A stretch of DNA of 57,837 nt, counting the filler, from Diploschistes diacapsis (lineage: Eukaryota): the NCBI GenBank assembly GCA_023645945.1. It is 5 parts of 5 records of this genome, joined end to end, with 100 filler letters (N's around TTAATTAATTAA, not from the genome) between each part and the next. Parts side by side here need not be neighbours in the genome. Positions count along the whole stretch, not along the records: positions 23,182 to 34,670 come from JALAIB010000829.1; 4 more parts are not named here. The stretch is one strand, 5' to 3'. Position numbers and translations under genes: made by a program. Below are positions 15,301 to 33,655 of this stretch, in pieces (within the stretch, counting starts at the first letter, position 1; every line of letters starts with the position of its first letter). The notes beneath the pieces are model-generated. The model saw nothing but the letters and a program-made list of their open reading frames with translations. It was not told the DNA's origin and did no database searches.

Positions 15301-18300
15301 TAACGATATACAAAGCGACCCGAAGGTCGAGTGGCGCTCTCTCAGTCTATGATGGTTAGCGGAGAAGAATGCCTTGATCGAAGGAGTCTACCAAGGCTTT
15401 TTCAACAAAAGGAACCTCGTCCAGCCTCAAGTAGTTCCGCCAACAGGGAGAGAATGAAGAATCCTCCAATGCTCGAGCGCCGAGTAGAAGATCGCGACGG
15501 TGCTTTCGGAAACGGAGAGCCCTGCTTACGTCGGTCTCATACCAAAAGGTAGTCGAATGGTCCCAGGGGTATGGTGGGAGATCCGTCAGTACTCGTAGCA
15601 ATGCTGCATCGGCGTTGTCTTTGATATTGTTGACCCTATCAAGATGTACCTTAACCCCGGAGGCTAGCATTTCACCGACACCTTCAAGAAGACTGTCGAA
15701 CGCATCTTTCCCTCGAACACAGGTAGCCACATAATCTGATAACTCACGAGCAACTGAAAGAGCTGTCTCAGTGGAAGGAGATTTCAAGGCTGGGTGAGGT
15801 CCTATTTCTATCAGACAGACTGGCGTGGATGCGAGACTCCATAAGCACTCTGTCAAAGCTGGAGCGAACTGGACCGTTTGCACCATGTTCTTAGCCCAGT
15901 AAGAGGGAACACAGTCCTCAGAGACAATTGCGCCTCCAGTCACAGAAGAGAACATAGGGCATTTTGCCGGTCCGGAGAAAGTGATGCCCCGAGCCATTAA
16001 CGCTTCTTCGTAGTGCCGTGCGGCAGCCACGACATGAGAGGAATGAAAAGCTGCAAAAATTATTCAAGTGACCTTGGACCTTATCGAATACTCACCTGTA
16101 TCTACAAGAAGCTCTCGGCAGAAAATACCCATTTTCTTGACGTCCTCCATGACAGAATGAATAGCATCAACGTCGCCTGACAACGTGCAACTCCCTGGAG
16201 CGTTGATAGCAGCTATTTGAACACGATCATCATAAGTGGAAAGTAGATCCTTAGCCGTCTCTGGGCTGACACTGACGGCGCACATTGAACCTCGAGGTTT
16301 GCCGTTCTGGCAAGCCGAGCTGCCGAGATACAGGCCACGATAATACGAGATTATAATGGCGCTCTTAAGGCTTATCATTCCAGCAGAATAGGCGGCGGCA
16401 ACCTCACCCGACGAGTGGCCCACCACAGCGGAAGCGGTGACTCCCCAGAAGCGTAAAATTTCAACGATCCCAAGCTGCAGAACCGTACAAATGGGCTGCG
16501 AGAAGACAGACGAGTAGATGTTCGAAGCTTCCGCAGGCTTTTTTAACTCGTCGGCGATACGCCAATCTGGACCATCAGGAAGGGCGTCGAGGGCCATTTG
16601 GCATTCCTCGACTATGGAAGTGAACAACAGGGAGCCCCCCAGAAGTTCTTTGGCCATACCTGGCCTATCGACAATGAGCTGGCTTCGAAGAGTCAACTTC
16701 TCCACTTACCATTGAGCACCTTGTCCGGTGAAGATGAGAATAAGAGCTGGAGACGTGCCAACTGGCTTCTCTAGGATTTTCGCCGATTCAGCTTTCAAAG
16801 AAGCAAGTAACTGTTGCTGGTTACGGGCGATGAGGAACGTTGTTTTTGACATGGTTGATCTTCGATTCCCAAGCGTGTAAGCAAGCTGTTGCAGGTCTGG
16901 CTGCTCGCGTTCACAGTACGTGGCGAGATTCTCCTTCATCCGGCCCAGAGCGGTCGTCGTGAGTGCCGATATCTTGAATAGGAACGGTCGATTAGGGTTA
17001 TGGCATCTCGTTGCAGGCGGTAAGGGATGTGATTGCAATACAGCATGACCGTTGCTGCCTCCTGCACCGAACGAATTAACAGCTGCAAGCCGAGCACCGG
17101 TTTCGGATTCCGGCCAGCTCAGCATTTGTCTTGGAATCTTTAGGTTTGAGAAATCAATTTGGGGATGGAGCTGTTTGAGATTCATCTGAGGTGGAATCAT
17201 AGCTCGCTCCATTGCTTCGACAGTCTTGATAACGGCTGCTAAAGCTGAACTCGATTCGAGATGGCCGAGGTTTGGCTTGGTCGATCCCACTATGAGATCT
17301 TCCCTCCGTTCGGATGATTGAAAGACAGCGTTTATAGCAGAGATTTCTCGCGTGTCCCCTGCATTTGTGCCTGTTCCATGAGCCTCGAGATACTGTATGT
17401 CATCTGGTGAGATGCCTAAGCGTTTATAAAGGCAGCTCATGTTATTCTGTTGGGCGATGGCAGAAGGTAGGGTGATGCCTTGAGTGCGGCCATCTTGATT
17501 GAGCCGAGTTCCCTTGATTATGGCTCGGATTGGGTCATTGCAGCGAATAGCGTCTTCCAATGGGCGTAGGAGGAGACCAATAACGCCCTCGCCGCGTCCA
17601 TAACCGTCAGCCGCAGCATCGAACGTTTTGCACCTGCCATCAGGACTAAGATAACCGAGCTCCGTACAAGAGATGAACATTTCTGGGCTCAGTATTATTT
17701 TCGCACCACAAACTAAAGCCGATGTACACTCAGACATCTGCAGGGCTGTTACTGCCTCGTGCAAAGCCGACATGGATGACGAACAAGCGCTATCGACAAC
17801 GACACTAGGACCAGATAGGTCGAAAAAGTAACTCAGTCTATTCGAAGCAAAGCTGCCAGCTGTACCTGTCGCGCAATATCTGGGGGTTGCATCCGCATTT
17901 CGCGCGAGGATAGTGTGATAGTCAGTGCCCTCCATACCTGATCAACAGATCAGAAGGTTAAACACAATCATAAGTGCTCATACCAGAATATACGCCAGTA
18001 TTGCTCCCAGTGAAATCATCAAGTGAGATTCCCGCATTTTCAACGGCTTCATATGCAACTTCAATCAACATACGTTGCTGAGGGTCAATTGCAGCTGCTT
18101 CTTGAGGAGCAATACGAAAAAAGGTGTTGTCGAAACCACGAATAAGATCATCGTTCAGCATGTATGCTCTTTTGACGTCTGTGAGGCCTTTCAACGGTCC
18201 GCCTCTGGGATGATAGAAGCCTCGAACATTAAATCTCGTGATCTCGCTCTGCACGTCTTTCGAAGATGCGAGGAGATCCCAGAGCTCTGTCGGCGAGTTT

Positions 18301-18356
18301 GCTCCCGCAACCCGACAAGACATGCCAATGATGGCTATTTCCCGCCGCGTATCCAT
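12386..18356 (-). CDS. Iterative type I reducing polyketide synthase, KS-AT-DH(inactive)-degenerate MT region-KR-ACP, 6 exons, about 1900 aa
   Basis: KS: IAIIGMSCR, DPQQR, VDSACSSS, EAHGTGT, KPNLGHLE. AT: FTGQGAQW, GHSSGE, AFHS. KR: VVGGLGGLG, VLAD, FSSIASILGNRNQANYNIGN. ACP: YGFDSLSAV. Five GT-AG introns join the ORF-track pieces in frame. Confidence 0.93.
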
Positions 18357-19418
18357 TTTGGCCAAAGTGCGAGAGGATACTTAGGATTAGTTTGATTGTA
18401 CATGTCGCCCAGAGGGAGCCTTTTTAAACTCAAGCAACGACCACAAATATCAGTGCTCGAATTTTACCTGGCGTAAGCTTCAAGGCCAGGCTTATTGTTG
18501 ATGCAACGATGCATGAGACCCATGAAGCATTTGATGTAACCCTTTAGGTTCTCCTACAAGGGTCTGGGCTTTTGCCTCGATTGGCTACACGCGCTACATT
18601 ATCTTCATTGAGGGGTGGATGCGGCGCACACAGGATACCCTCCACTGTAGATTTCTTGAGGAGCAAGCCAATCGTGGAGCTACCCCTGGACAAGCTCTGC
18701 TGCAGATGGTTGCCACAGGTAGGCCCCTAAAGCGCTCCAGTTTGTCACGGTGGACGGGCTCCGTGACCGCTTTGTCATAGCCACAATTTCTTTAAACGAT
18801 TGATGGCTGTATCAAGTGAGAAAGATTGGGCGCTTCGTTATTGTTTTCGACTTTTTTTGGTAGCATTCCAGTCCGAGGATCTTGATTCGATAGGCTCAGG
18901 AGCTCAAGCCGTCCAACCAGCTTCATAACAATGGCCACGAATGAGCTGAGGGAAGCATGTTACGAACGACATTGCGGTAGATATCGAGAAAAAGTGATAG
19001 GGAGAATTCGGGATGGGTGGGTCGAAGAGGAAGCTGAAATCAAAACTCTTGGTCAAGGGACAACTCAGTGAGGGAATCCAAGTCCGAAGGAATCAGCCAA
19101 TCAAAACTTTCCATTCACCTATTTGGTCCATAATAGCTTCGAAGCATCTATGAGAGGATAATGAGGATTACTTACTCGTGGCGTAGATAGGTGTAGAATA
19201 GATTACCGCGAAGGAAAAATCGCTGTGTGGGCATCAGGCCCTCAGCCTTACGCATCCAGCCCTATGCAGAAGCACTCTGCAGGTGCACTGCTTGCAAAAG
19301 TAGTGCAAAAGCTAAACACCGATACTATCTAGTACCGCCTTTGCCATCTCAGTTCTACTAGCCCTTGTGAATCACCCCATAGGCCTTTGCGTCCGCATCA
19401 GCCAGCTGCCCACTGAAG

Positions 19419-19802
19419 ATGGTTGTCCGGCATAGCGGCCTGCAGAGGTCGGTATTGTCACTCTATCGGTCTTGTCTGAGGGAGGCGAGGAGGAAGCCTG
19501 AAGTAAATTCCTACGCTTTTAGGCTTTTCTTGAGTGACAATTTGAAGATGTGGGCTAATGCCGTTTGTTTTAAGGAGAGTCGGGAGAACTTCAGGATATT
19601 TGCACGGTGGGTCAAGATATGCCTTGCGTCATTTATGGGTTTTTGAAGTGATTGTGGCTGAGTTGATGTTTATAGGAACGAGTTCTATCAGAATCTTACG
19701 GTCGATAAGAAAGACTTTGCTGCCGTTGAGTATTTGTTGCGCAAGGGGCAAAGGCAGCTAGAGACTTATGCAGCGCCGGGAATCATCAATATTCGTAGAT
19801 GA
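19419..19802 (+). CDS. SDH6: Succinate dehydrogenase assembly factor 1 (LYR-motif protein)
   Basis: Introns 19503-19574 and 19607-19675 give MVVRHSGLQRSVLSLYRSCLREARRKPEESRENFRIFARNEF...VDKKDFAAVEYLLRKGQRQLETYAAPGIINIRR*. Confidence 0.92.
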
Positions 19803-19988
19803 GGCTGCACAGGTAATCGCACATCCATGAGAGATCTGCGACAACTGGATGCATTAAGATTATAACTAACATAACAGTAAGACTCCCTTTTCCTGCTATA
19901 GCAACGAGATCATATAATTATTTCCAGCTGTATCACCCAGCACCCTCGCTAATTCAACCATCAAGTCGTCAAAGGTAAACCATAACGC

Positions 19989-21145
19989 TCAAAGCCCAGG
20001 CATCTCATCGCCGGTCCGGGGATAGTCGCGCCACTGTGGATCGAAGCACAGTCCCAGCCTCCAGAAATACTGCCGATGCGCAAACAGCAGCTGCCAAATC
20101 TGCCACGAGTCCGGTATCTCCAAACCCCAGTGAGGACGCCCGTTTCGAGCCTGCAATAGTGCATTCTGTGACCCACGATATTCGTTTAACCCGTATTTAT
20201 TATGACTGTCAGCCGGCCCTTCAATACACCTCTCATCTTGGTCTCCTTCGCACCGCTCGAGATCGCCAATGGCAGGAGGCAATCCGTCCTTTGAAATGAA
20301 GACTTCGCCTCCATGCATGTGCCAATCCCAACGCTCAAACGGAAGAAGAGGGACAGGATCTTGGACGTGGGTAACGCGACGATAGGCGATGTCGCTCTCC
20401 GAAACGTTCCAAGGAAAGATTCGATCCATATATTCCGCCATCGCCTGATTCCCCAGCCTCGGTTCTCCGAATGTTGTCACCTCGAGATCCCATCCTCTCG
20501 CCTTGAGCTCTAGTGCAGCCAAGCCGGCGACGGCGCCGCCAAGAGAATGTCCGGCAAGTACGAGTCGGTATTCGGGGTACTCAAGCTTCAGCCTTTCGAG
20601 GGTGGGGAGTATCTGTTCTTTCGTCGCGTTCCAGGACGACATGAATCCGGAGTGGACGGTGCAATCATGGCAATCGGCGTCGTTGGCGGGATAGGGAAGG
20701 TATTCGGCTGGGGACGTCATGAGGTCGTGGACGGCGTCGGCGAAGGAGTGGGTGCCGCGGAAGACGACGAGGATGCGCCGCGGCCACGGCGAGTGGGAAA
20801 GGACTATGTAGCCGCTTGAACTTGATTGGAGAATGCCTGTACTCCACGTCTAGGCATCTTTAGTTAGACATAACCTCAGTCCGTCCTGATGAAAGCGCAT
20901 ACCGCGACGAGCGCAAACCCTCTGAAATCCGAACAGTGGCTCAAGCACTCGAAGGGCTCCTGGATACCTGTGTTTCCGACACAGTATGATATAGCTACTA
21001 GGCGACTCAGCTCCTCGAGCTGGAGGAATAGACCCTTCGAAACATGTCGATCGAAGGTCTGCGTCTGGTATTGTCGTAGAGTCAGAGGCGAGGTTTTGGC
21101 GCTCCCAAAGAGCAGGGCAAGCACGCACGCTAGAAGAACGAGCAT
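19989..21145 (-). CDS. Secreted class-3 lipase (Lipase_3)
   Basis: Signal peptide MLVLLACVLALLFG, one intron (about 20850-20901), VVFRGT, CTVHSGF, nucleophile GHSLGG, TFGEPRLGN, RVTHVQDPVPLLP, AHRQYF. Confidence 0.92.
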
Positions 21146-21415
21146 GTTCAAGTCGGTCGGGAAGCTACATAGCCAAGAACAAGCTTTAATCTAAGATAAA
21201 GCGCCGCCCACCATGACGGCGAAGCTGGTGATGAATTCACATGGTTCGAGAATGAAGGGAAACGGGGAGTGGGAAAAAAGGTGGAGTGAAGGCGATGCGG
21301 TCATTCTGCGGTATCATTGATTCCGCTTGGTACAACATCATCATTCCCTAAAGTATCCGCAACCCCATAACTGAGCCTTCGCTTCTACAGCTTCGAATTT
21401 GATCCCCCTATGCCC

Positions 21416-22562
21416 TCACCAATGTCTTGTTTTACACTTCTCGCATCTCAGATACCTCTCCCCACCATGGAATCTGCATTGAAACTCAGCCTCGCAATGC
21501 CTGCAATGTGAATATGTGCGGAGTATTTTCTCCTTTTCATCCATCTCTTTCTGCACTTCGTCTCTTGACGCGATCGCAGCGATCTCTCGTACTTGCAAAT
21601 CTCTCAACTTTGAGTCTTGTTCGCTGATCTTCACTTGGAGAGCTAATTCTGCCATTGTCGACTTATGATGATGGTGCCGAAGTATGTCGCTGGCGAGCTC
21701 TGCGTCTTCCTCCAACAATTTGATAAAAGTTGTGTCACTCAACAGCTTGCCAAGATGAGCTATGCATTTGGTAATCACAAGATCACGGAGACCTTTGTCG
21801 CTGGCTGGCGTTGAAGTGTAAACTTCATGGGCAACATCGGTGAATTTTCGAGGCAAGTCTTCGCTTTCTACCAACGACTTGAACTTGTTCAATGCAAGTG
21901 CCTTGAGAAGACCAATGTCATACGTCTCTGCCATAGCATATACCAAGACATTGTTGACCAGTTTCTCTGTTACATGGTCACCAAGAGACGCTTCCGATTC
22001 TGGAAGAAACTCTGGGGATTGACCGCCTTCGCTGGATACGGTGCCACTGTCCCTGGTCTGCTCTTCACCTGCTGTTGGAGGGGACAATGACTGAGAGCCA
22101 GATCCAATCTTCATCAGATTCGTGGTTGAAGCAAGGTCGTGTATATCTGGGGAATTTCCGCCCACCTCGCTGTCATCATAGTCGTCAATGTAACAGAATA
22201 GTAGCATACGTTTCACGGTTTCAAGGTCATTCTCTTCAAATGGATACTCCTGAGTGGCGGCCTCCTGCTTCAGTGAGTGACAGGGTTCTGAGAGCAGCTT
22301 CACTGAGGATTTCACTTACAGCATAGTTGTCAGTCAGAGCCTTCCTCAACGGCTCGGATTTCTGGCTTATGAAAGCGCGGTGAGCCCGGATTCTCTTCCC
22401 TTCGCAGATGACTGTGAGATCTGCAAATCCAATCCTCTCTACTTCCTCTTCAAGCTTTGAACCCGCCGTTTTGACCCCTACAACGGGTCTCTGTGCGGGA
22501 TGGTCATTGTCCTCCATCTGTGGGCTTCGGGCTCTAATGTTAAGATTCTGAGATGCCTGCAT
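21416..22562 (-). CDS. BTB/POZ-domain protein with C-terminal coiled coil and CxxC..CxxC motif
   Basis: FADLTVICEGKRIRAHRAFISQKSEPL...[intron]..EAATQEYPFEENDLETVKRMLLFCYIDDY; NVLVYAMAETYDIGLLKALA; C-terminal CRHC...CEKC. Start codon uncertain (22562 or the next Met). Confidence 0.85.
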
Positions 22563-23081
22563 GGCGTAGGATATGGTCCGGAGAAGTATCCTTGAAGGTA
22601 ACTTTGAAAGATTCCTGAAGGATTATTTATACGGATTACTGAAAGAGCTCTTATACAGGCTAACCCAAATACTCTTTCACGTTTCTCTCTCTCTCTTTGT
22701 CCAGACAGCCACTATTGATCACGACGAGAGTTTCTCAAAACATCAATGAATATACGCAAAACACGGTCTTGCAGATGAGACTTTTGGATCACATTCTTTG
22801 CGCTCAGAATTCTTGTTTGCCACCTGTCTCAGAAGATTCTTTGTGACACTCCCGCTCCACGTCACAGTCAACTAGCGAGGCTACCTTTCATTACACAGGA
22901 AGACCAAGGAAAAGGCTTTCATACGGCACACCCTTCTTTGCAACAAGCCCATGCAACCCGGGCCTCTTGCAAGCCAGCCCCGCCTACCAAAGGTCTTCCT
23001 GCCACTAACATTTTCAATCCCGCAATACCTCACCCCCTTCCATGCCTATGCAGTATCTTTCACTCTCCTCTCCTCTCCCCC

Positions 23082-23181
23082 NNNNNNNNNNNNNNNNNNN
23101 NNNNNNNNNNNNNNNNNNNNNNNNNTTAATTAATTAANNNNNNNNNNNNNNNNNNNNNNNNNNNNNNNNNNNNNNNNNNNN
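23082..23181. other. Artificial contig spacer
   Basis: 100-bp N run with TTAATTAATTAA linker. Confidence 0.98.
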
Positions 23182-23990
23182 CTCCCCTCCCTCTCCCACC
23201 TTCTCGCAAGCAATGAAAAGAGCTAGGTCAGCTTCGCCGTTCTTCTATTGCGACATTTCTCCGAGCCAGCCCATATACCGCCCTATAAGCACGCACCTGC
23301 ATGCATCAAAACTTTTGCCACATACGTAGCTCTCTCGTGTGTGGCAGAAGCAGGCAAGTCTGCATGGGACAGGCAGGGCAAAGGCAAGGCAAGGCAAGGC
23401 GAGGTTGTCGGCCGTCTGCTTGTCATCAGGCTCGGTAACGTTATCTCTGACCACCACCACCATCGGTATCCATGAACCCCCCTGGTGTGCCAAACCTCAT
23501 GCTAAACTGCGGCAAGTTGCCATGGACTTCCTGGCCGGGCTCATCTCATAGAGGCTTGTTACTGACCGACTGGCTTGATTTAAAACACGCATTAACCGGT
23601 TCTGGGGGATGGACATGGGCTGGTCCCTATGGGCATTATCATCGGTGTGCATGGAGAAGGTGAGATCGGATGGTTTGCAATACAAACTATGGGATAAATA
23701 AAAGCTTTAACGAGCCTTGATTGGTCTATACCTAGGTAGAGAGGGATACCCATAGCTAGAAAGCGAACTTTCAGCCTGACTGAGTCCACCAGAGGCAGCT
23801 GCAAAAGACAGTATTGGAAAAACCAAAAACCCAAAAATAAACAAAAAATGGTTGGATGCTCAATCCTTTCCAGTATATCCCCTATCGCGGCTTAGAACGT
23901 TGGCTGGCTCGAGGCCGTTCCGCCTGCCATATGGTTAATTCTCTGTGCCTTCACCTATATAGAGCGATGAGGATCCACATACCTGCTACT

Positions 23991-24391
23991 TCATCTGTAG
24001 TCTGGCGTAACTTTGTCCTCACCCCTCCTGTAATCAGGCGTAGCTCCAGTCTCATCATTTTGTCCATCATCAGGAGTTACTCCTTCTTCATAACCTCTCT
24101 TGTAGTCAGGAGTTACTTTCGTGCCGTCGTCGTCCCTCTTGTAGTCTGGCGTAACATCCTTTTCATCACGTTTGTAGTCAGGAGTAACTTCGTCGGTGGT
24201 TTCACGTTTGTAGTCAGGCGTGACGTGCTCATCCTCCTTTCTTGCCAGCTGCTTGATGGAGCCAGTGGTCGATGGATCTATCTACACTTCAATCGATGCT
24301 CATGGGGAGTCTGAAGGGAAACAGTCTTACATAGAGGAGCAGCTGTGGCCGTCAAGCCCAAAGCAAGAACGAGAAGGTTCCTAGCAAGCAT
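23991..24391 (-). CDS. Kex2-processed repeat protein (KEP), putative fungal RiPP precursor with [V/A]TPDY repeats, 115 aa
   Basis: Exon 1 24391-24331, intron 24330-24278 (GTAAGA..TAG), exon 2 24277-23991. Translation: MLARNLLVLALGLTATAAPLYPSTTGSIKQLAR KEDEHVTPDY KR ETTDEVTPDY KR DEKDVTPDY KR DDDGTKVTPDY KR GYEEGVTPDD GQ NDETGATPDY RR GEDKVTPDY R*. Signal peptide plus dibasic-delimited repeats; codons for the conserved TPDY vary synonymously. The branch point is weak, so the acceptor is inferred from frame. Confidence 0.85.
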
Positions 24392-24516
24392 TCTGTTCTT
24401 CCCCCCTAAAGTATTTCTAACCGTGTTCTTGACTTGCCTATTGAAGCGTTCTGAGAACGAAGCTTGAAAAAAACTGATCTGCAGAGCTCAATTACCCAAA
24501 ACTAGGATACCGTCTC

Positions 24517-24524
24517 TTTATATA
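24517..24524 (-). promoter_or_regulatory. TATA-like element upstream of the KEP precursor
   Basis: TATATAAA on the minus strand about 130 bp upstream of ATG 24391. Confidence 0.45.
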
Positions 24525-25214
24525 GATGGGCAAAGGACATCTTACTTGCTAACCTAGGCAGGCACTTGGCGAAGGATCTTCTCGCATCTTAGAAAGGGAA
24601 ATCCCAAGAAAGTGGCAGCGTGGGTTCTCAGCTTGTCTTTTCCAAGGCATGAGCTGTTGAGCTTTACCGGAGAAGCAGGCCCAAGTTGGTGAACTTGACG
24701 AATTCAATGCAACTTTGCCTCTTTGCCACTTTGCCTTCTTCACATGGTGCCTGGAGAAGTGTGCATATGATACTATGATACGGAAAACTTGGCCGAAAAT
24801 CCGACGATCAAGAAAGCGCCACCACCGCCGATCGGTAGAGACCTACATTAGCATGACTCTATCCCATAGTCCGAATAGATGAGGCCATGCTCCGTTCGTT
24901 TTCACCAATGCTCAATCTTTGCACGCCCCATGAGTGCATAGGTATATGAAATTCTTTGCTTGCAGTAGCTGTGACGCCAATCCACCAGCAATATTCGTTG
25001 ACCACCACTTCACACGCAAGAAGTGTTCTCGTAAGCGTCTGTTAACGTGAGCAGTTTTCAAAGCGGGCGAGTGAGGGGGCAAGACAGCACCCCGTTCTTT
25101 CCCATTTTCATTTGATCCCTCATTCTTTCCGGAGTACGAGTCCCAGAGAGCTCGATAGCCGATTGAGAGTCTTTGGGTCGAAAGTTCTTTCATTTTGGTT
25201 TCCAGAGCATTACC

Positions 25215-26472
25215 ATGCCCCGACCTCAACTGCCGGCACTCGCGAGATATCAGCTCATATCCTCGGAAGAAGACCTTGGGTCCATTCAAGACCAATCAGT
25301 CCGAGACTGCAGGGAGCATAAGCCTTCGACAGCGCAGAGACGCTTGTTTTTTGCTTGTTTTACGCTTGGCTTGCTTGCAGTTATTTCCATTTCGTTCAAC
25401 TTCGGCATCTTCACCTTTAGCAGATTGAAACTCGGCACTTTCGACTTTCAGAGCACCGCATGTGATCAACCGGCATTCCGCCGGGAATGGAGAAGCCTGA
25501 GCGTGTCAGAGAGGCTAAACTATATTGATTCGGTGCAATGCTTACGGACTCGACCATCGCGGCTCGGTCTCAATCAATCGCTGTATGATGACTTCCCATA
25601 TGTTCATAATCAGGAAAACGGCAAGAACCCCCCCTACACCTCAAGCGTGGCGACCAATTGATGCTGACTTACTTTCCCAGCACATGGTGCCGCCAAGTTC
25701 GTGGCATGGCATCGATACTTCTTAATAGTATATGAGAAAGCTTTGCAGCAAGAATGTGGTTTGCAAGGCTTTCTACCGTGAGTCTACTGGTGTCCCAGCC
25801 AAGTGTTTGAGAGAATTGACACTGGATCAAGGTATTGGGATTGGACCCTAGACTGGCAAGACGTAACTAAAGCCCCTGTATGGAATTCCGAGATTGGCTT
25901 TGGGGGCAATGGCGATCCTCAGGCAGGTGGGAGTTTGCTCAAGGGTCATTGTGTAGTAGACGGGCCGTTTGCGATGCTTCAGGTTTCGTATGTCAAATCG
26001 GATAGAAGACCGCACTGCCTTTCTAGGGGATTCGCAGCGCTCGAGAGACTACATGAGCTCGGCGAACTGATCAGACCGGATGCTATCGAAAACCTGTTGC
26101 GCGAAGAAAGCTACAATGCTTTCAACCTGGGGCTAGAGTACACGGCTCATAATGCCATACCAAGGAGCATCCAAGGCGATTTCCTCGTACTGACTGCGCC
26201 CTATGGTGAGTAAATCACCGGTGCCTCTTGAGTGGACTGACTCGACGACAGATCCCGTCTTCTTCTTGCATCACGCTCAGCTTGACAGGCTATGGTGGAA
26301 ATGGCAGCAGATGTCTCCGGAAAGGAAATGGAAGTACGATGGAGTAGCGACCGTCGATTCTTCTGAATTAGCATCGACCACTAACTCGTTGGGACTGGGG
26401 GAGCTTGCACCAGGGGTGCAAGTCGCAGACATTATGGATACCAACAATCGGCAGCTATGCTACATGTACTGA
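25215..26472 (+). CDS. Membrane-anchored tyrosinase / type-3 dicopper protein, UstQ/PhomQ-like architecture (4 exons)
   Basis: N-terminal TM anchor (LFFACFTLGLLAVISISF); C..P.FRREWRSLS..ERLNYIDSVQCL; YDDFPYVH..AHGAAKFVAWHRYF; PYWDW; GFGGNG; CVVDGPF; AHNAIP..IQGDF..TAPYDPVFFLHHAQLDRLWWKWQ; LCYMY*. Introns 25621-25680 (GC-AG), 25778-25831, 26206-26251. Confidence 0.9.
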
Positions 26473-26883
26473 ATGTTGCCTTTGCGTTCCTCTGAAAGGA
26501 CCGGCCAAGGCGCAAGTATACGTCGGGGCTTAAAATTTCCCTGTGCAAATGCAATAATTCTGTATACCGTCCATACTTTTACCATTCTACCCCCATCGAT
26601 ACGATAGGGACGCTCTCTTTACCCCCGTCCCAGTACACAGGCCAATGCCAATTTACAAGATGCCTTCCCTACGTCTGGTAAGCCTGCTCATCCTGCTCAT
26701 CCTCTCAAGCGGCTCGCCTCGCTAATCTGGATCATTTCCCAGTTCAGGCTGCAGAGCTCAAGGCTTTCTATGTTAAGAACCTTTTCCGTATATCCGACGT
26801 AATCCCTGTGTTTAATAACGCTCCCTACAATTCTGCTCCCAGAACAGTTTTGTGCCTCATCCTGGGTTCCAATTCAAGTTGTC

Positions 26884-27410
26884 TCACCTTGGCTTGGGGG
26901 TTCGTCCACAAGTTACCATTCCTGGGTTGGCTGTCGGAAATGGAAATGCGTTGTCCATCAACCACTCAAAGTCAATCATCAGGCAGGGGTCGTCGAAGAA
27001 AAAAAGGCAAAGGCCCTGCATCGCCCGAGCGTATGAGCAATTCCAGAAGCTGGACGGATTGCCCGGGGTTCGAGCGCGTTGTCGTTGAATCGGACGACGC
27101 CACACCAGGCACCGCACGGAGCCGCTCCCCAGAGAATATACACCGGTCCGCCTGGTTGCTCGCGTTCGTGGAGCCGATGGAAGCGACTTCGGTCGGCGCA
27201 GGCCCAGAACCTTCCGACAGCGAGCTAGCTGTCCGCATGGGCAAACGGTAAGGTTGGAATCTGCAGTCGCGCAGCCCGCTTTGTGGTAGACGCTGGCGTT
27301 CGAGCCGAAGTGTTGACGGGCATCAGGGAGTATGGATCGGTCGGGGGGCATGGCAGGATTCCGGACACAAGCGCTACGAGGACTGGTATTGTAGTTTTGA
27401 TACTATGCAA
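26884..27410 (-). pseudogene. Possible degenerate small secreted Cys-containing protein gene
   Basis: Signal-like TTIPVLVALVSGIL begins at TTG rather than ATG and is out of frame with the downstream Cys-containing ORF 27351-26884. No family recognised. Confidence 0.25.
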
Positions 27411-28138
27411 AGGGTGTGCTTGTAGTGCCTGTGTGGTTTCGCTATATGTATATATCAGTTTAGTTCAATACTGGCACAAACCAGTATTGTTCGTCTTTTG
27501 GCTATGTGGCCTGGCGGTACTTGAACTGGCGCTTTGCAATATCCACCTGGTGCTCCAATCTGCACGAGATGATTCTGTGGGTTATTAATATGAGACACGT
27601 TGACACTTCGACCAGGATACAGAGTTCGAAGGCACTCATTGGTGGGAGTCAGAATTCTGCTTCCTTTTTTCCCCTACCAAGTTCACCTTTCAGCCCTACA
27701 TGATCGCACTTTGTCCTATTCCCATTCCCTGGATAACTGTTTCTTTGCAAGTTCTTTATATGCAGAATTTCGGGATTGACCAACCATAGTCTACTTCACC
27801 CTTGCTGCCCCCTAGAAAAGAATAACGATCGAGCCAATGAATGGCAGTCTCGACGCCAGGCTATCTGCACGTTCACGTTGTCAGCCTTGCCTCACATCGA
27901 TGCCACCATGGATTCCATTAGAACGACCGGGCTCGGCAGATGTTTATCGATGAAAGCGGCCCGGAAGGGATGGCTCGGAACGTAAAGAGGGTTTTATGGA
28001 CCGGAGATTATCATCGAGCATGGGTTGAATGTCCCTACTTAAAGATGCATCTGATCCAGCTCTTATTCTCCCACCTATTAGTCTCAGAGCTTGTACAAAT
28101 TCGTGAAGTCCAAGTAACCCTACTTTGAATCCCCTAGC

Positions 28139-31100
28139 ATGCCCCAGAGAAGCAACTTCTCTGCCCAGATCTGGGAGGAGCATAAGGCCAAGATAATAGA
28201 CATTTTCCAGCAGAAGAGCCTCAAAGATGTGCAAGCCTACCTCGCAGCTCATGGCTTCAAACCAAGGTAGGTTTGACAATATGCCTATGCGTAAACTCAG
28301 CAATAACTTCGTGAAGCACGGGACAGCTGGTACGTCAGCTCGATACTTGGGGGATCAAGAAGAGCCTGTCAGAAGCACAATGGAAAAGCATCGCCCATTA
28401 CATCAAAGCTCGCTCTCGCCTAAAGAAAAGAACGAATGTTATAGTGAGAGGCCAGCCAATAGACGATCGAAAACTTACCAGGGGGATCTCTCGGCATACT
28501 ACAGCAACCTACACTTTCCTGCCATTAAGTATCCATAATACAACCGACTGCCTGGAAGCCAACTGACACAGTCAGGTCCCTCACCTGAGCCTATGCAGGA
28601 TGTGCAGTTCGTCACGCCACTTGCCAGTCCACTTCTCGATGCAGCCGGCGCAATCACCACACCCATCTCTCAAACACAGCAATTGCACCATCTCCTTCCT
28701 GTAGGCCAATCCTTAGGCGATGGCATTGACAACTATGTACGGATCCACAATCTGCCCTCCGTACTCTTCGCAAAAGGAATGGCAAATTTAGGTTCGTCCA
28801 ATCATGGCCAAACCAGACTGAAAGCTTACTTTAGAAGTCGATAGGATGTCTGAAGGTGGCGCAGAAGACGGTACGGTCCTCGATGGAAGCTCCACTAGTC
28901 AATTGGAAACGATTGCCTCGCCGCTTCATAATATCATGAAGCACTATAGTGCAACGTTGCAAGACAACTATTTGTTCAACCAGCTTGATATTCTGCAGAC
29001 ACGCTTGAACCTATTCTCGATCGATGACTCCACAGACCGAATTGGGGTAGGGTCTGTACCGCTATGTATCCAATCTCATGCTACAGGAGCCCGACAGCTT
29101 CTCGCTTTCCTGGTTCATCTATCCTCCAACGGCATGCTCGAACCTCGACGGGATGAATCATTTAGCTACCTCATCGAGGGCTTGCAGGATGTTGATCCCA
29201 TCAGCGACTTTTTGACTTTCCTCATCGACCATGATCAAAGGTGGATTCTTTCCGTTGTGCTCACCATCAAATCACCAGCAGTGAAAATGTTCGCTGGCAA
29301 AGCCCTTTCGGTCGCCGTGCGACTGCAAGATATACGGATCGTTCGCCTTCTCATTGGGTCGGAAACGCCTCTGAACATGACTCTAAAATCGCGTAAGAAA
29401 GGTGGTGTGGAAGTTCAGGCTACTCCGCTCCACGAGGCCCTCCGACAAAGACACAAGCCTCTGATCAAGATACTGCTGGAAGCTGGAGCAGATGTCAATG
29501 GGTGTTATATGAATAGCTTCGGCATAACAGAGACTCCGCTTACACGATTCCTTCAAATATGCTGTAAAAAAGGACATGCTACTGACATTGATATCGAGAT
29601 AGTCCATATGTTATTGACGTGGGGAGCAGAACTTCATCCTACTGACACTGGTCTACTGACACCTCTCCAACACGCAATTTGTATTAACAACAAGGAACTC
29701 GTCCAGCTCATCCTACGATATGATCATAACATCAACTTGAGCAGAGGCCCTGGTTATCCGTCGAGTATCCAGATAGCGGCTTACGCGAACAACTTTGAGC
29801 TAGTTCGGTTTATGTTCTTAGGAGGAGCAAACATCAATTGCCCTGCCATCGTGACTGGAAATCGCGTAGGCGGCGTGTTTAAACTTGGAAGCCCTTTGCA
29901 ATCAGCAGTAGCCTATCAAAACTTGGAGATGATAAACTTTCTGCTTGAGAATGATGCAGAATTCGAGGGTTCTACGGTGGAAATGATGGCGGGGGAACAT
30001 GGAATCCTCCGCCACGGAATTTGCTGCTATGATTGTTTTACACAACCTGCATTATCTACGCCTCTCTCCGAAGCCATCAAGAGGGAGAACATGGAGATTA
30101 TCTCTCTTCTATTGAGCGCTGGGGCCTCTCTAAATCATGACTGTAAACCAGCACTGCCGTTTGCAGCTCTTACCGGGAACACCACCTTATGCAGAGCGTT
30201 GATCCAAAAGGGCGCTGACCCTAATATCTCGACCAGGGACGAATGGCTCGAGACTTTGACTGGGTCCTGGGAGTTCATAGAAGCGGAGCACCGTCCTATG
30301 ACATCCCTCCAAGCGGCGGCAGCGTCTGGCTCCGTCGAGCTGGTCAGAATACTTCTCGAAGCCAAGGCGGATGTCAATGCTCCAGCAACCGAGCCCAGTG
30401 GTTATACTGCACTCCAAATGGCTGTGAGACATGAGCATGACGAAATCACATCCCTGTTGCTTCGTCACAGCGCCAACGTCAATGCAGATGCCAGCAACTT
30501 TGGTGATAGTGCACTCACGCTTGCTATAAAGAAGTCAAATACCCGGCTCACCAAGATATTTCTCGAAATGGGAGCTGATCCGGACTACATGCCTACGCGT
30601 TACGGGTCCCTGACGCCGTTACAACACGCAGTGCGGAGCCAACAGCTTGATATAGTCCAGTCTTTAGTCAATGCCGGAGCCTGCCTGAATATAATCAGCG
30701 ACACTTTGCCTGTTCTGAGCCAGTATTATCTTACTGGCGCAGCGTTGCCCTTGACTATACTGTACGGTCTTCTGGAGATACAAGACTATCTTTTACGATC
30801 AGGCGCCCGTTTCATGCTAGCAGACCTTTTAACGGCTGTTCATACAAACGACATCTCCATGGTGCGGTTGGTCCTAGACAAGCGCAAAGAGCAGTCATCG
30901 CCTTTCAGCAGTAATGAGCTGGGGCTCGTGCTTGGACATGCCATCAGTGGGGTTGATTGTAAGCTAGAGATAGTTAACCTGTTATTGTTGGATGGAGCAG
31001 ATATCCACCGTGGTTCTTCGTCGTGCAAAAGTCCACTCGCTATGGCAATAATGAAGGGGTTTGAGGATGCCATCGATCTGTTGTTGACCCAGGAGCCCAA

Positions 31101-31614
31101 TCTTGCTTGGACATTTAAGGGACAGGAGCCACTTGTCGCACTCGCAGCTAAAAAGAATGATATAGGTCTTGTCAGACGACTCGTTAGCTTAGGGGCCGAT
31201 GTTAACGCATGCTCTATGGGTGAGTTTCCCGCGGAAACACCGCTTTACCATGCCTGCTGGAATGACAACATTGAGCTGGTGGAGCTTCTAATCGAGCATG
31301 GCGCGTTCATTGACGGCATACCAGGCGAGTCATCGCCACTCCAAGGAGCAGCAGCCAGCAGGCACCCGTCAGGCCTCGCAATTGCAGCTTTGCTGATTGG
31401 AAAAGGAGCGAAGGTCCATTCTCAACACGACGTGTGTGGATTCACTGCACTGGTTAGTGCTGCCAGAAAGGAAAAACTAGATATGGTGCAGCTGCTGCTC
31501 GATAACAGCACCGATGCCGAGGAGCGTAGAGAGGATTGCCAGCTGGCATTGAAAAAGGCCAGGACGGAACACAATAACATGGTGATCTTTGAGATGCTGG
31601 AACAGCACATCTGA
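28139..31614 (+). CDS. Clr5-domain plus ankyrin-repeat protein (4 exons)
   Basis: ATG 28139 gives WEEHKAKIIDIFQQKSLKDVQAYLAAHGFKPS..QLVRQLDTWGIKK (Clr5-like). Three GT-AG introns join it to the 922-aa ORF with many ankyrin repeats (TPLHEAL..LLEAGADVN, TALQMAV, TPLYHAC). Confidence 0.85.
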
Positions 31615-32597
31615 ACTTCGCTACTAACGGCAGTCAATTACCGCAAGGCGCAAAAGTTGACGATGTTGTCAGAGAAAGCAAGGGCTTCGATGTATCGGCC
31701 GTAAACAATCACTGACCACGTTTCTAAGAGCTTAAATGAAGAGCATTTGGACTTTGGTCTTTTAGTTGCTGACGGAGATGAGTTTCTATGGAAAGCGGAT
31801 TGATCTAGGATGCACCGAAATGCAATGCGAGTAACAACCCAGCTATATATTTTCGTACTGCAGATAGTCTTGATGAACGATGCTTCTTGCAGATGTCCTA
31901 CCCCAGTCACGAAAGATTCCCGTCATACTTTGCTCCCTGCATTGCATTCTGGTAATTTGATATTCCGATCTAAATTGTGCTTGTGGAGCCCGCCTGGTTC
32001 GCAGCGGCTATTTCCTACCGTGGAATAGTACCTGTTTGTTACTTCAAGCTTTGAATGTCAGATATAGCCCATCCATATTTGAGCTTCTTTGTTGGAGGGC
32101 TTTGCAGGTTTGGATCAGGACTGCGCAGTAAAGGCAAGTACCTAACTATCAGGACGGTGTTGCATAATAATACCGCTCAGGATTTTCGCAAACATTAAAG
32201 AATATATAAGGTATAGTGGTCGGCATTCCCATGGAAATTTCTTCTTTGAGTCACGATAATATTGGTCCAGTCTATATTGGCATCCCAGGTGACAGACAAT
32301 ATTCAAATTCGGCACTGGCCCCGTCCGAATTCAAGTCCGTGTCCTGTCAGAACCATATATGAAATTCCCTACGACTGTTCTTCTACCAATACTCTGGCGC
32401 GCATTCATGGTTTCTTGTACCAGGGTAGCTGAGCCGGACGCAGAGAGACCACGTCAATGCGCCCTTGACTCACCCCCTATATATACTTTGCTTTTTTCCA
32501 GTCCTATCCTGTTTCCTTTCTCTTTCTCCTTCTCTTTAGCTTTCTCTTGTCTGAACCTGCTTCGTACGGCCCCCCCGTTGCGTAGCTACTTTCGTTC

Positions 32598-32818
32598 CCA
32601 ACCTTGCTTGACACTCCTGTCGCTGCAGAGCTTCGTCGTTACCAACCTTGCTTCGTACAGCCTTCGCTGCAGAGCTTCTTCGCCTCCAACGTTACTTCGT
32701 ACAGCCTCTGCTACAAAGCTTCTTCGCTTCCAACGCTACTTCGTACAGCCTCTGTTGCAGGGCTTCGTTGCATCCAACCTTGCTTCACACTCCTGTCGCT
32801 GTCCGAACTTCTTCGTCT
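32598..32818 (+). repeat. 44-bp tandem minisatellite, 5 copies plus a degenerate upstream copy
   Basis: Units start at 32598, 32642, 32686, 32730 and 32774, consensus about CCAACcTTgCTTCGTACAGCCTcyGCTGCAGAGCTTCtTCGcyt. Confidence 0.9.
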
Positions 32819-32836
32819 CGAACCGAAGCATTAGCC

Positions 32837-33655
32837 ATGTCTTACCCTCTACTAGCAGGCTTGGAACATTCCATGCACGCCCCCAAGATGGATGTGCAGC
32901 AGACTCGTCCCGCCTCTCGCCCTCTACGAGCAGGCTTACAAAAGTCCACGCACCCCTCCAGCAGAGACATACTCCAAGCGCCGGAAAAACCCTCGCCCGT
33001 CCCATCCGCGACCAAGCCCAATGAGGCCGAAAAACCGTCTCTCATCTCCTCCACACCTCAACCCAAAGAACCCGAAAGACCCGACCATCCCCCCTGCGCC
33101 ATCTGCCAAGAAGACTTCCGCCCCACCTCCACCATCGCTCAGCCCTCCTGCCACCCAACCCACATCTACCACCACGACTGCTTCATGGAGTGGCTGAACA
33201 CGTCCCTGGACATGCACACGAGCTGCCCCTCTTGCCGCAAGGAAATCAAGCTCGCCTACATCGGCCACTTCGACGCCAGGACGGGGCTGATGCGCCAGGG
33301 CGTGCGCGAGGTGCGGTGCTACGACGTCAGCATCGAGACGCTGGAGCTGTTCACCGACGACGAGGCCATGCAGACGCTAAGGGTCGTCCCGGAGGAGATG
33401 GGCCTCAAGGGCGGCGACAGGATGCGGGACATGGCGGGCGAGTGGGACGGCATTCTGGGCGACGGGCCCTACTACATGTACGCGGAGCCGGGCGATAGGA
33501 GCCCGGAGGTGGGGGACGAGTGGGAGGGGAGGCAGATCGTCGTGGTGGAGGAGGTGGGCGTGGAGATTCGGAGGGAGAGGAGGTGGACGGAGACGCTGGT
33601 TTCGAGGAAGCCGGTGCGGAGGAGCGGACCGGCTGGGAAGAGGGGGAGGGTTTGA
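32837..33655 (+). CDS. RING-H2 finger protein (putative E3 ubiquitin ligase)
   Basis: CAICQEDF...PSCHPTHIYHHDCFMEWL......SCPSCR. First ATG after the minisatellite is at 32837. Confidence 0.8.
   Translation: MSYPLLAGLEHSMHAPKMDVQQTRPASRPLRAGLQKSTHPSSRDILQAPEKPSPVPSATKPNEAEKPSLISSTPQPKEPERPDHPPCAICQEDFRPTSTIAQPSCHPTHIYHHDCFMEWLNTSLDMHTSCPSCRKEIKLAYIGHFDARTGLMRQGVREVRCYDVSIETLELFTDDEAMQTLRVVPEEMGLKGGDRMRDMAGEWDGILGDGPYYMYAEPGDRSPEVGDEWEGRQIVVVEEVGVEIRRERRWTETLVSRKPVRRSGPAGKRGRV

What the first reader, a model, noticed from the sequence alone, without database searches (positions are those of the whole stretch)
23991..26472. Candidate fungal RiPP system: VTPDY-repeat Kex2 precursor divergently paired with a membrane-anchored tyrosinase
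Seen: a hidden two-exon gene encodes a signal peptide followed by seven repeats with variable acidic leaders and a conserved [V/A]TPD[Y/D] end, six ending in Tyr before KR/RR/R. It lies head-to-head (about 820 bp apart) with a tyrosinase carrying an N-terminal TM anchor, which would place the catalytic domain in the secretory lumen where the precursor travels. Established: dikaritin RiPPs (ustiloxin, phomopsin) come from Kex2-cleaved repeat precursors, and their clusters include tyrosinases (UstQ, PhomQ) acting on Tyr and DUF3328/UstY oxidases. Inference: this is a minimal precursor-plus-tyrosinase module. VTPDY does not match the cores I know for ustiloxin (YAIG/YVIG), phomopsin (YVIPID) or asperipin-2a (FYYTGY). 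I found no DUF3328 HxxHC gene on this contig, so the product may be a DOPA-containing or Tyr-crosslinked peptide made without UstY. The contig ends about 800 bp past the precursor, so more genes could lie beyond it.
Basis: partly seen in the sequence, partly recalled or inferred. Interest (0 to 1): 0.9.

Follow-up and report, generated by a model that had tools for sequence, protein, structure and literature searches.

The report
Lichen-fungus RiPP precursor beside tyrosinase
A small secreted repeat protein that would be cut into six near-identical peptides ending in tyrosine sits head-to-head with a membrane-anchored tyrosinase-like oxidase in a lichen-associated fungus; it is most likely the visible edge of a ustiloxin-type cyclic-peptide gene cluster with a new peptide core.

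Summary
A two-exon minus-strand gene (24391..23991) encodes a signal peptide and seven [V/A]TPD[Y/D] copies. Six end in Tyr, followed by KR, RR or R-stop. Between copies, codon changes are 43 synonymous to 12 non-synonymous in this frame, against 0 to 55 in the longer antisense ORF. A 365-aa PF00264 tyrosinase-like gene with an N-terminal hydrophobic anchor starts 823 bp away on the other strand.

The pairing recurs. Homologous "x-x-x-D-Y-dibasic" precursors lie next to related tyrosinases in three further lineages: L002/L007, L006 and L005. The "UstY-free minimal module" idea is not supported. In L002, the only close relative with full context, a UstYa/DUF3328 gene lies about 475 bp beyond the precursor. 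In the window's tyrosinase clade, 25 of 38 loci carry UstY, and all 13 without it are contigs of 6.3 kb or less. The window's contig ends 809 bp past the precursor.

Verdict: a new member, with a new core family, of dikaritin-type fungal RiPP clusters, seen truncated. No RNA data were available. Interest is moderate. It supplies repeat precursors that a 2025 lichen RiPP survey did not find.

The parts
24331..24391 (-). Precursor exon 1. It encodes the signal-peptide-like N-terminus (MLARNLLVLALGLTATAAPL plus the first base of a Tyr codon).
   Evidence: The hydrophobic maximum is at residue 6 (mean Kyte-Doolittle over 11 residues 2.27). The same exon design occurs in L002, L005 and L006. No SignalP-type tool was available.
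24278..24330 (-). Precursor intron: 53 nt, GTAAGA...ATAG, phase 1.
   Evidence: A phase-1 intron lies at the same place, right after 'AP[T/L]', in L002 and L005. No RNA evidence.
23991..24277 (-). Precursor exon 2. It holds seven acidic-linker plus [V/A]TPD[Y/D] units. Five internal dibasic sites follow a core Tyr (KR x4, RR x1), and the last unit ends R-stop.
   Evidence: Codon changes between copies are 43 synonymous to 12 non-synonymous, against 0 to 55 on the antisense ORF.
23997..24224 (-). Span of the seven 15-nt core copies (24210-24224, 24174-24188, 24141-24155, 24102-24116, 24066-24080, 24030-24044, 23997-24011).
24392..25214 (.). Divergent intergenic region of 823 bp between the two start codons. 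It is the presumed shared promoter.
   Evidence: Coordinates. The equivalent spacers are 556 bp in L002 and about 1645 bp in L006 (my reading). Promoter function is inferred, not tested.
25215..25620 (+). Tyrosinase-like gene, exon 1. It covers the cytosolic N-terminus, the hydrophobic anchor (19-mer maximum at residue 44; nt 25344-25400 is my conversion) and the first CuA histidine region.
25681..25777 (+). Tyrosinase-like gene, exon 2 (HGAAKFVAWHRYF, the CuA region). It is preceded by a 60-nt GC-AG intron.
25832..26205 (+). Tyrosinase-like gene, exon 3 (central domain, first CuB histidine).
   Evidence: PF00264, 21.1 bits; 114 homologues, best 62% identity.
26252..26472 (+). Tyrosinase-like gene, exon 4 (DPVFFLHH motif, C-terminus ...LCYMY, stop).
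   Evidence: PF00264, 38.9 bits.
23182..23990 (.). The 809 bp between the precursor stop and the end of the contig. No recognisable gene was found here.
   Evidence: an independent contig also ends at 23182; no tblastx or blastn match to any of the 80 related loci; no UstY-like ORF.

Best explanation
This is the visible end of a dikaritin-type (ustiloxin/phomopsin-like) fungal RiPP gene cluster from a lichen-associated ascomycete. It carries a precursor family with a new core.

Shown by the sequence:
- The precursor has a signal-peptide-like N-terminus and repeated units of acidic linker plus V-T-P-D-Y, bounded by KR/RR.
- The neighbour is a tyrosinase-like protein of the UstQ/PhomQ family with an N-terminal hydrophobic anchor.
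- The pair is conserved in several lineages.

Inferred mechanism:
1. The precursor enters the ER.
2. In the secretory lumen, the anchored tyrosinase-like oxidase acts on the Tyr of each core. It works together with one or more UstYa/DUF3328 oxidases encoded just beyond the contig end. By analogy with UstQ+UstYa+UstYb, they oxidise the Tyr and cross-link it to another side chain. The best candidate is the conserved beta-branched Val/Ile four residues upstream.
3. Kex2 cuts after KR/RR, and exopeptidases trim the basic pair and the acidic linker.
4. Up to six copies of a small modified peptide are secreted.
For: Gene reality and strand. Between the core copies, codon changes are 43 synonymous to 12 non-synonymous in the precursor frame, against 0 to 55 antisense. 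The intron is canonical and the exon-1 design is shared with relatives.

Precursor family. These all carry [V/I]-x-[P/A]-D-Y-[K/R]-R repeats: P0001 ([V/I][S/T]PDY[K/R]R), P0125, P0129 ([I/V]EADYKRD), L002/L007 (IKADY-RR) and L006 (..GDY-RR).

Conserved pairing. Of the four lineages whose precursor context is visible, all four have the tyrosinase as direct neighbour. These are the window, L002/L007, L006 and L005. The scan behind this was 80 tyrosinase loci (scripts).

UstY link. L002 reads GMC oxidoreductase, UstYa (PF11807, 41.3 and 23.3 bits on its two exons), precursor, tyrosinase. L033 has three UstYa genes plus a repeat precursor plus a tyrosinase. A UstY-like ORF at E<1e-5 occurs in 35 of 80 loci and in 30 of the 38 loci of 8 kb or more. 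In the 98%-supported clade that holds the window it occurs in 25 of 38 loci, and the 13 without it are all 6.3 kb or shorter.

Family membership of the oxidase. It is 40% identical to PhomQ1' over 341 columns.

Literature, passages read. ustQ, ustYa and ustYb together are essential and sufficient for the first cyclic ustiloxin intermediate, and PhomQ is essential for phomopsin (PMC6514808). Tyrosinase genes gather near KEP genes only when DUF3328 genes are present (PMC7329392).
Against: - No UstY/DUF3328 gene is visible in the 11.5-kb contig. This includes 8.2 kb downstream of the tyrosinase and the 809 bp beyond the precursor.
- In L002 the UstYa start lies only about 475 bp past the precursor stop. 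At identical spacing, roughly the first 330 bp of a UstYa gene should fall inside the window, and nothing recognisable is there. That N-terminal part is poorly conserved, however: L002:7694-8053 itself gets no Pfam hit.
- L005 shows 3.8 kb beyond its precursor without UstY.
- There is no expression or splicing evidence, and no product is known.
- Many of the 80 loci are near-identical copies, so the counts overstate independent events.
- The tree rests on 127 columns and a quick search.
- The tyrosinase-like protein lacks the second CuB histidine (Pro instead), as do all its compared relatives including PhomQ1'. Its chemistry may therefore differ from that of canonical tyrosinases.
Confidence: 0.62

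Rival explanations
1. A genuinely minimal, UstY-independent module. The lumenal tyrosinase-like oxidase alone converts the C-terminal Tyr of each VTPDY unit to DOPA or a quinone, or cross-links it, and no DUF3328 oxidase takes part.
For: No UstY-like ORF lies anywhere in the contig or in the other four pieces of the window. The precursor-tyrosinase pair is the invariant part in all four lineages. L005 has 3.8 kb beyond the precursor without UstY. Nothing UstY-like lies in the 809 bp where L002's spacing would put the start of the gene.
Against: L002, the only close relative with complete flanks, has UstYa next to the precursor. Every locus over 6.4 kb in the clade has UstY. The window, L005 and L006 are all cut on the side where UstY could lie. 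Across 7878 KEPs, no tyrosinase enrichment was seen without DUF3328 (PMC7329392, passage).
Confidence: 0.17
2. The precursor yields unmodified secreted peptides (a signalling or other Kex2-processed peptide family), and its position beside the tyrosinase has no biosynthetic meaning.
For: Most KEPs described have no nearby tailoring enzyme: 6120 of 7878 lack a DUF3328 neighbour (PMC7329392). There is no direct evidence of modification. P0126 from Amanita inopinata (YSPDWKRD repeats) shows that similar repeat designs exist in a distant fungus of unknown context.
Against: The adjacency recurs in four lineages whose tyrosinases are only 52-55% identical to the window's over exon 3, and in two different orientations. 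Within up to 10 kb of flank, the repeat precursors found were all within about 3.5 kb of the tyrosinase. The invariant Asp-Tyr fits a Tyr-directed enzyme.
Confidence: 0.1
3. The coding gene is the longer plus-strand ORF (23856-24314, 152 aa), or the region is a non-coding DNA repeat, and the 'precursor' is a reading artefact.
For: The plus-strand ORF is longer than either precursor exon. There is no transcript evidence.
Against: In the plus frame, codon differences between repeat copies are 0 synonymous to 55 non-synonymous, against 43 to 12 in the minus frame. Relatives conserve the minus-frame peptide, signal peptide and intron. My ORF list for L002 (100 aa or more) shows no antisense ORF over its precursor. 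Tandem Repeats Finder reports no DNA-level tandem repeat.
Confidence: 0.03

Closest known systems
Ustiloxin cluster of Aspergillus flavus / Ustilaginoidea virens (UstA precursor, UstQ tyrosinase, UstYa/UstYb DUF3328 oxidases)
   Same: It has a signal peptide plus a KR-delimited repeat precursor with one Tyr per core, and a tyrosinase homologue in the cluster. The close relative L002 has a UstYa homologue (PMC6514808 passages).
   Different: The core here is [V/I]-x-[P/A]-D-Y, with Tyr at the C-terminal end directly before KR. Ustiloxin has YAIG/YVIG with Tyr first (cores as quoted in PMC7329392). The tyrosinase is the immediate divergent neighbour, whereas it lies 7 genes away in ustiloxin. 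No UstY, methyltransferase, P450, FMO or peptidase is visible in the window. L002 shows one UstYa, not two.
Phomopsin cluster of Diaporthe leptostromiformis (PhomA, PhomQ, PhomM, PhomY proteins)
   Same: The window's oxidase is 40% identical to PhomQ1' over 341 columns. It shares the N-terminal anchor layout and the Pro in place of the second CuB histidine. The precursor has repeats flanked by KR.
   Different: PhomQ1' falls outside the window's 98%-supported tyrosinase clade. The core differs (YVIP... against VTPDY). No methyltransferase or S41 peptidase was seen.
Asperipin-2a cluster (AprA, AprY, AprR, AprT)
   Same: It is a compact cluster, and its core FYYTGY ends in Tyr, which forms ether links to beta-carbons (PMC6514808 passage). 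L002's compact UstYa-precursor-tyrosinase layout is similarly small.
   Different: Asperipin needs no tyrosinase. Here the tyrosinase is the conserved partner.
Lichen RiPP 'Clan R1' of Pasinato & Singh 2025 (two UstY homologues, tyrosinase, O-methyltransferase, FGE-sulfatase)
   Same: It comes from lichen-forming fungi and has a UstQ-like tyrosinase beside UstY genes. Locus L004 (O-methyltransferase, two UstYa, tyrosinase) and L001 (my by-eye reading of an O-methyltransferase upstream of the tyrosinase; that ORF had no Pfam hit) look like that clan.
   Different: That study found no repeated precursor in its clans (passages). The window, L002, L005 and L006 do have one. The window shows no O-methyltransferase or sulfatase among the 11 ORFs of its contig that I scanned.
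Kex2-processed repeat proteins (KEPs) in general (Umemura 2020)
   Same: It has a signal peptide and at least 3 repeats separated by dibasic sites.
   Different: None of the motifs PDYKR, ADYRR, PDWKR, DVYRR, TPDY, SPDY, KADY or SPDW occurs in the three supplementary files of that paper held as text. Long files may have been cut when stored.

Membership tests
Kex2-processed repeat protein (KEP) | N-terminal secretion signal | tested here: met
   Exon 1 reads M-L-A-R followed by a hydrophobic stretch and ...TAAP (mean Kyte-Doolittle over 11 residues 2.27 at residue 6). I judged this by eye and by hydropathy only, because no signal-peptide predictor was available.
Kex2-processed repeat protein (KEP) | Three or more repeats separated by dibasic (KR/RR) sites | tested here: met
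   There are seven core copies and five internal dibasic sites that follow a core Tyr (KR x4, RR x1).
Dikaritin / ustiloxin-type RiPP cluster | DUF3328 (UstYa, PF11807) oxidase gene in the cluster. This is the class-defining enzyme according to the passages in PMC12048977. | tested here: inconclusive
   None was found in the 11.5-kb contig or in the other four pieces. The contig ends 809 bp past the precursor. It is present next to the homologous precursor in L002.
Dikaritin / ustiloxin-type RiPP cluster | Repeat precursor whose core contains Tyr | tested here: met
   Six of the seven cores end in Tyr.
Dikaritin / ustiloxin-type RiPP cluster | UstQ/PhomQ-type tyrosinase (present in ustiloxin and phomopsin clusters, not in asperipin) | tested here: met
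   PF00264 matches. The protein is 40% identical to PhomQ1' over 341 columns.
Dikaritin / ustiloxin-type RiPP cluster | Tyr side-chain ether macrocycle in the product | not testable with these tools
   This needs isolation or heterologous production and MS/NMR.
Type-3 copper tyrosinase (PF00264) | Match to the Pfam domain above the curated cut-off | tested here: met
   Exon 4 scores 38.9 bits against a cut-off of 22.6. Exon 3 scores 21.1 bits. The exons were scanned separately. Relatives carry PF00264.
Type-3 copper tyrosinase (PF00264) | Six copper-binding histidines (three CuA, three CuB). The canonical H-x3-H of CuB is recalled knowledge. | tested here: not met
   Histidines lie at residues 131, 137 and 146 (CuA region) and at 274 and 299/300 (CuB region). 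The position four residues after His274 is Pro. In the relatives aligned (P0007, P0009, P0011, P0092, P0103/PhomQ1') the same position is also Pro. This is therefore a feature of the subfamily, not a defect of this gene.
Lichen RiPP Clan R1 (PMC12048977) | Two UstY genes plus tyrosinase plus O-methyltransferase plus FGE-sulfatase | tested here: not met
   Only the tyrosinase was seen. The 11 ORFs of the contig scanned with Pfam gave tyrosinase, ankyrin and RING hits only. Not every ORF was scanned, and the left side is missing.

The most novel reading that the evidence does not exclude
The conserved unit is only the precursor plus the anchored tyrosinase-like oxidase (which has an atypical CuB site with five histidines). 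In this reading it makes a Tyr-modified peptide without any DUF3328 oxidase, for example a C-terminal DOPA/quinone or a Tyr-to-Val(-4) cross-link. That would be a new class of fungal RiPP chemistry in lichen-associated fungi.
Probability: 0.15. Interest if true: 0.8.

Novelty: new member of a known kind. Interest (0 to 1): 0.55.

Why it matters
Fungal RiPPs of the ustiloxin/phomopsin kind are potent tubulin binders, and only a handful of cores are known. [quoted passage not shown]

This study finds a family of small, intron-containing precursor genes with [V/I]-x-[P/A]-D-Y-dibasic repeats directly beside UstQ-like tyrosinases. One case has full context and also carries a UstYa gene. The sources are a lichen metagenome and other metagenome contigs.

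This gives concrete substrates for heterologous reconstitution. It also offers a compact three-gene test system, L002-type UstYa plus precursor plus tyrosinase. With it one can ask what each oxidase does, which is still unclear for dikaritins.

Tried and rejected
- RNA evidence. The look-up of sequencing runs listed no RNA holder, so splicing and co-expression could not be tested.
- Laid DNA contigs. Only DNA contigs of three runs were laid. One 228-nt, low-depth contig of a rock-metagenome run skips 72 nt (24021-24092). That would remove exactly GYEEGVTPDDGQNDETGATPDYRR in frame. It is a single contig inside a repeat, laid at a likeness threshold of 85, so I treat it as a weak hint only.
- Precursor search in metagenome contigs. 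The precursor profile matched 116 pattern stretches, and none was confirmed.
- Exhaustive profile search with the precursor. It gave 14 hits at E of 0.001 or better. Of the 8 I read, 5 are unrelated repeat proteins and 3 are KEP-like (P0125, P0126, P0128). The other five hits, 796-3687 aa long (P0116, P0119, P0123, P0124, P0127), were not read.
- Tandem Repeats Finder found no DNA repeat in the precursor.
- Pfam on the precursor gave only sub-threshold chance hits.
- The left flank 23182-23990 had no tblastx or blastn match to any related locus.
- No whole genome is held for this window, so the contig could not be extended and the rest of the genome could not be searched for UstY.
- The protein Atlas was unavailable.
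- Earlier findings of this scan: none.
- Literature. 'VTPDY' occurs in 5 papers (4 listed, all unrelated to fungal peptides). I found no paper describing a tyrosinase-only KEP pathway in searches.
- Alpha-factor-like pheromone precursor. I considered this and set it aside. The units are strongly acidic and lack the Trp/Cys/Gly-Gln pattern that I recall for Pezizomycotina pheromones. This rests on recall and was not tested.
- No structure or complex prediction was run. An enzyme-substrate pair is a poor case for the complex test.
Full report
**What the window is**

The 57,837-base window is five pieces of about 11.49 kb joined by N44-TTAATTAATTAA-N44 linkers: 1-11491, 11592-23081, 23182-34670, 34771-46258 and 46359-57837. 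The pieces share no nucleotide similarity with each other. The finding lies in piece 3.

A public run labelled lichen metagenome holds the stretch completely (share of words 1.00) and may be its source. A rock-metagenome run and a third run hold diverged parts (shares 0.33 and 0.23). An independent contig of the first run covers 23182-27478 and ends exactly at 23182. The left boundary is therefore probably a true assembly break. Bases 27431-27500 are a high-copy repeat.

**The observation**

*Precursor.* On the minus strand, an ATG at 24391 opens a 61-nt exon that encodes a signal-peptide-like start. A 53-nt GTAAGA...ATAG intron (24330-24278) follows. A 287-nt second exon ends with the stop at 23993-23991. 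The spliced product is 115 aa.

Exon 2 carries seven copies of [V/A]TPD[Y/D] behind short acidic linkers:

| Reading | Copies |
|---|---|
| VTPDY-KR | 4 |
| VTPDD-GQ (degenerate) | 1 |
| ATPDY-RR | 1 |
| VTPDY-R-stop | 1 |

*Which strand codes.* The copies differ mostly at synonymous sites. Over the 21 pairs of copies there are 43 synonymous and 12 non-synonymous codon differences. The same bases read in the frame of the longer antisense ORF (23856-24314) give 0 synonymous and 55 non-synonymous differences. This settles which strand is under selection. It also explains why Tandem Repeats Finder reports no DNA repeat here.

*Tyrosinase-like gene.* Its start codon lies 823 bp from the precursor's start, on the plus strand. 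The exons are 25215-25620, 25681-25777, 25832-26205 and 26252-26472, with introns of 60 nt (GC-AG), 54 nt and 46 nt. The product is 365 aa. It matches PF00264. It aligns over residues 6-365 with the whole 366-aa protein named from Bogoriella megaspora, at 49% identity. It has a strong hydrophobic segment from residue 44, preceded by a cluster of basic residues. A type II orientation, with the catalytic domain in the lumen, is an inference from the positive-inside rule.

**Relatives of the precursor**

- A word-indexed search of 5.8 billion proteins found one relative among 689 candidates. This is P0001, 132 aa, with [V/I][S/T]PDY[K/R]R repeats.
- An exhaustive profile search of 1.84 billion representatives added P0125 (ITPDYKR/VTPDYKR), P0126 (YSPDWKRD, seven copies) and P0128 (QP[S/T]PYYKR).
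- A second profile search added P0129 ([I/V]EADYKRD). It also named P0126 as coming from Amanita inopinata.
- The common pattern is a beta-branched residue at -4, Asp at -1, Tyr at 0, then a dibasic site, usually followed by an acidic residue.
- The motif was not found in the literature, nor in the supplementary KEP tables of Umemura 2020 that are held as text.

**Relatives of the tyrosinase and their neighbours**

Exon 3 finds 114 homologues, the best at 62% identity. The named ones nearest to it are from lichen-forming fungi: Lasallia, Bogoriella and Bathelium. PhomQ1' and proteins named 'UstQ' appear further down the list.

The precursor profile found nothing in the metagenome contig collection. 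I therefore fetched 80 loci around tyrosinase relatives, with up to 10 kb of flank on each side. I scanned them with my own scripts for repeat precursors and UstY genes.

Repeat precursors of the same design lie next to the tyrosinase in these loci:

| Locus | Precursor | Arrangement |
|---|---|---|
| L002 | IKADY-RR, four copies | Head-to-head, 556 bp between start codons |
| L007 | Same lineage as L002 | Cut inside the precursor |
| L006 | ...ADYSR/GDYRR | Head-to-head, cut inside the precursor |
| L005 | AVVDDDGGDVY-RR, eight copies | Downstream of the tyrosinase, same strand |

L033 carries a different repeat precursor (MTMYYKGD...KR) 3.5 kb from a more distant tyrosinase.

The window, L002 and L005 share the same first-exon design: about 20 residues ending AP[T/L], then a phase-1 GTAAG intron. 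This argues for common descent of these genes.

**UstY**

Pfam confirms UstYa (PF11807) in three loci:
- L002 has two exons at 7032-7821, directly beyond the precursor. The UstYa start lies about 475 bp from the precursor stop.
- L033 has three UstYa genes.
- L004 has two, together with an O-methyltransferase. This resembles the published lichen Clan R1.

A jackhmmer scan seeded with those ORFs gave these counts:
- 35 of 80 loci have a UstY-like ORF at E<1e-5.
- 30 of the 38 loci of 8 kb or more have one.
- None was found in any of the five window pieces.

In a tree of the exon-3 segment, the window falls in a clade of 44 rows with 98% SH-aLRT support (85 rows, 127 columns, quick search). That clade also holds L002, L005, L006 and most UstY-bearing loci. 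Of its 38 loci, 25 show UstY, and the 13 that do not are all contigs of 6.3 kb or less.

Caveats: many loci are near-identical, so these are not 25 independent events. The tree is also short.

**Interpretation**

The pair of precursor and tyrosinase-like oxidase is a conserved functional unit.

The further claim, that the system works without a DUF3328 oxidase, is not supported. The one close relative with intact flanks has UstYa next to the precursor. The window's contig stops 809 bp past the precursor, on exactly that side. The 8.2 kb on the other side holds a non-coding or repeat stretch, a Clr5-ankyrin gene and a RING-H2 gene. These do not look like cluster genes.

I therefore read the locus as the truncated edge of a dikaritin-type cluster. 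By analogy with ustiloxin, the tyrosinase-like oxidase and UstYa would oxidise and cross-link the Tyr of each core in the secretory lumen. In ustiloxin, ustQ, ustYa and ustYb are jointly essential and sufficient for the first cyclic intermediate (PMC6514808, passages). Kex2 and exopeptidases would then release the peptides.

The conserved Val/Ile at -4 is a candidate cross-link partner. This is inference only.

Some points count against a simple copy of L002:
- At L002's spacing, the first roughly 330 bp of a UstYa gene should lie within the window, and nothing recognisable is there. That region is poorly conserved, however.
- L005 has 3.8 kb beyond its precursor without UstY.

I give the UstY-free reading about 0.15-0.17.

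**Comparison with published work**

- Umemura 2020 (passages read) found that tyrosinase genes are not enriched near KEP genes unless DUF3328 genes are present. When they are, tyrosinase counts peak about two genes from the precursor gene. This matches what is seen here.
- Pasinato and Singh 2025 (abstract and passages read) found UstY/tyrosinase clusters in lichen fungi but no repeat precursors. The small intron-bearing genes described here are candidates for that missing class. I have not shown that their Clan R1 loci contain one, and L004 and L001 do not within the sequence held.

**Side observations**

- In the window and all compared relatives, including PhomQ1', the tyrosinase-like subfamily has Pro where canonical type-3 copper proteins have the second CuB histidine.
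- Several tyrosinase loci (L026/L028, L008/L009, L062, L064, L065) carry up to four copies of a protein with no Pfam match and two HxxHC motifs. A profile-profile comparison aligns these with the UstYa double motif at 54.7% probability, E 1.2e-4.

**Limits**

- There is no RNA data.
- No genome is held for the window.
- The contexts of P0001, P0125 and P0129 are unknown.
- The signal peptide and membrane topology were judged by hydropathy only.

Noticed in passing
window 1-57837: The window is not one contig. It is five pieces of about 11.49 kb joined by N44-TTAATTAATTAA-N44 linkers at 11492-11591, 23082-23181, 34671-34770 and 46259-46358. The pieces share no nucleotide similarity.
   Followed up: yes
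window 25621-25680: The first intron of the tyrosinase-like gene uses a GC-AG splice pair (GCAAGA...CCCAG). No GT donor in the right phase exists there, and the spliced reading fits the homologues.
   Followed up: partly
window 26032-26046 (codons for His274 to Pro278); alignment A3: The second CuB histidine of canonical tyrosinases is Pro in this protein and in all compared relatives, including PhomQ1' and a protein named UstQ. The UstQ/PhomQ subfamily may have an atypical copper site.
   Followed up: partly
L026:5201-5983, 7626-8402, 872-1732, 11189-12184; L008:2557-3273 and 2-784; L062:3075-4253; L064:2345-3115; L065:2436-3158: A protein family with no Pfam match and two HxxHC motifs occurs in up to four copies beside UstQ-like tyrosinases. 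A profile comparison with UstYa aligns both motifs at 54.7% probability, E 1.2e-4. It may be a divergent UstY-like oxidase family that DUF3328-based mining misses.
   Followed up: partly
window 24021-24092: One low-depth contig of a rock-metagenome run skips these 72 bases. That would delete the degenerate VTPDD unit and the ATPDY-RR unit in frame, leaving five perfect VTPDY units. It is a single contig inside a repeat, so it may be an assembly artefact.
   Followed up: partly
window 27431-27500: A short high-copy element. Summed contig depth jumps from about 90 to about 4000 in the probable source run. Many contigs of three runs begin or end here.
   Followed up: no
window 28139-31611 and 32612-33652: A Clr5 domain (PF14420) is followed by a 930-codon ankyrin-repeat ORF, and a RING-H2 finger ORF lies downstream. 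Neither looks like a cluster gene.
   Followed up: partly
window 12758-18380 and 19992-20849 (piece 2): Minus-strand ORFs carry the KS, AT and KR domains of a reducing polyketide synthase. A class-3 lipase gene lies beside them.
   Followed up: no
window 2-1663, 9328-10869, 36779-37909, 41453-45650, 47394-54432: Other genes in the unrelated pieces are an RPE65-type carotenoid oxygenase, an RTA1-like protein, a GH76 glycosidase, a DUSP-UCH ubiquitin hydrolase, and a very large UCH/DUF3517 protein.
   Followed up: no
L002:5429-6687: A GMC oxidoreductase gene lies directly beside the UstYa gene of the compact L002 cluster. It may be a further tailoring enzyme.
   Followed up: no
P0126, P0128: Two repeat precursors have a related design but other aromatic ends. 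P0126 has YSPDW-KR-D repeats and is named from Amanita inopinata. P0128 has QP[S/T]PYY-KR repeats. Their genomic context is unknown.
   Followed up: no
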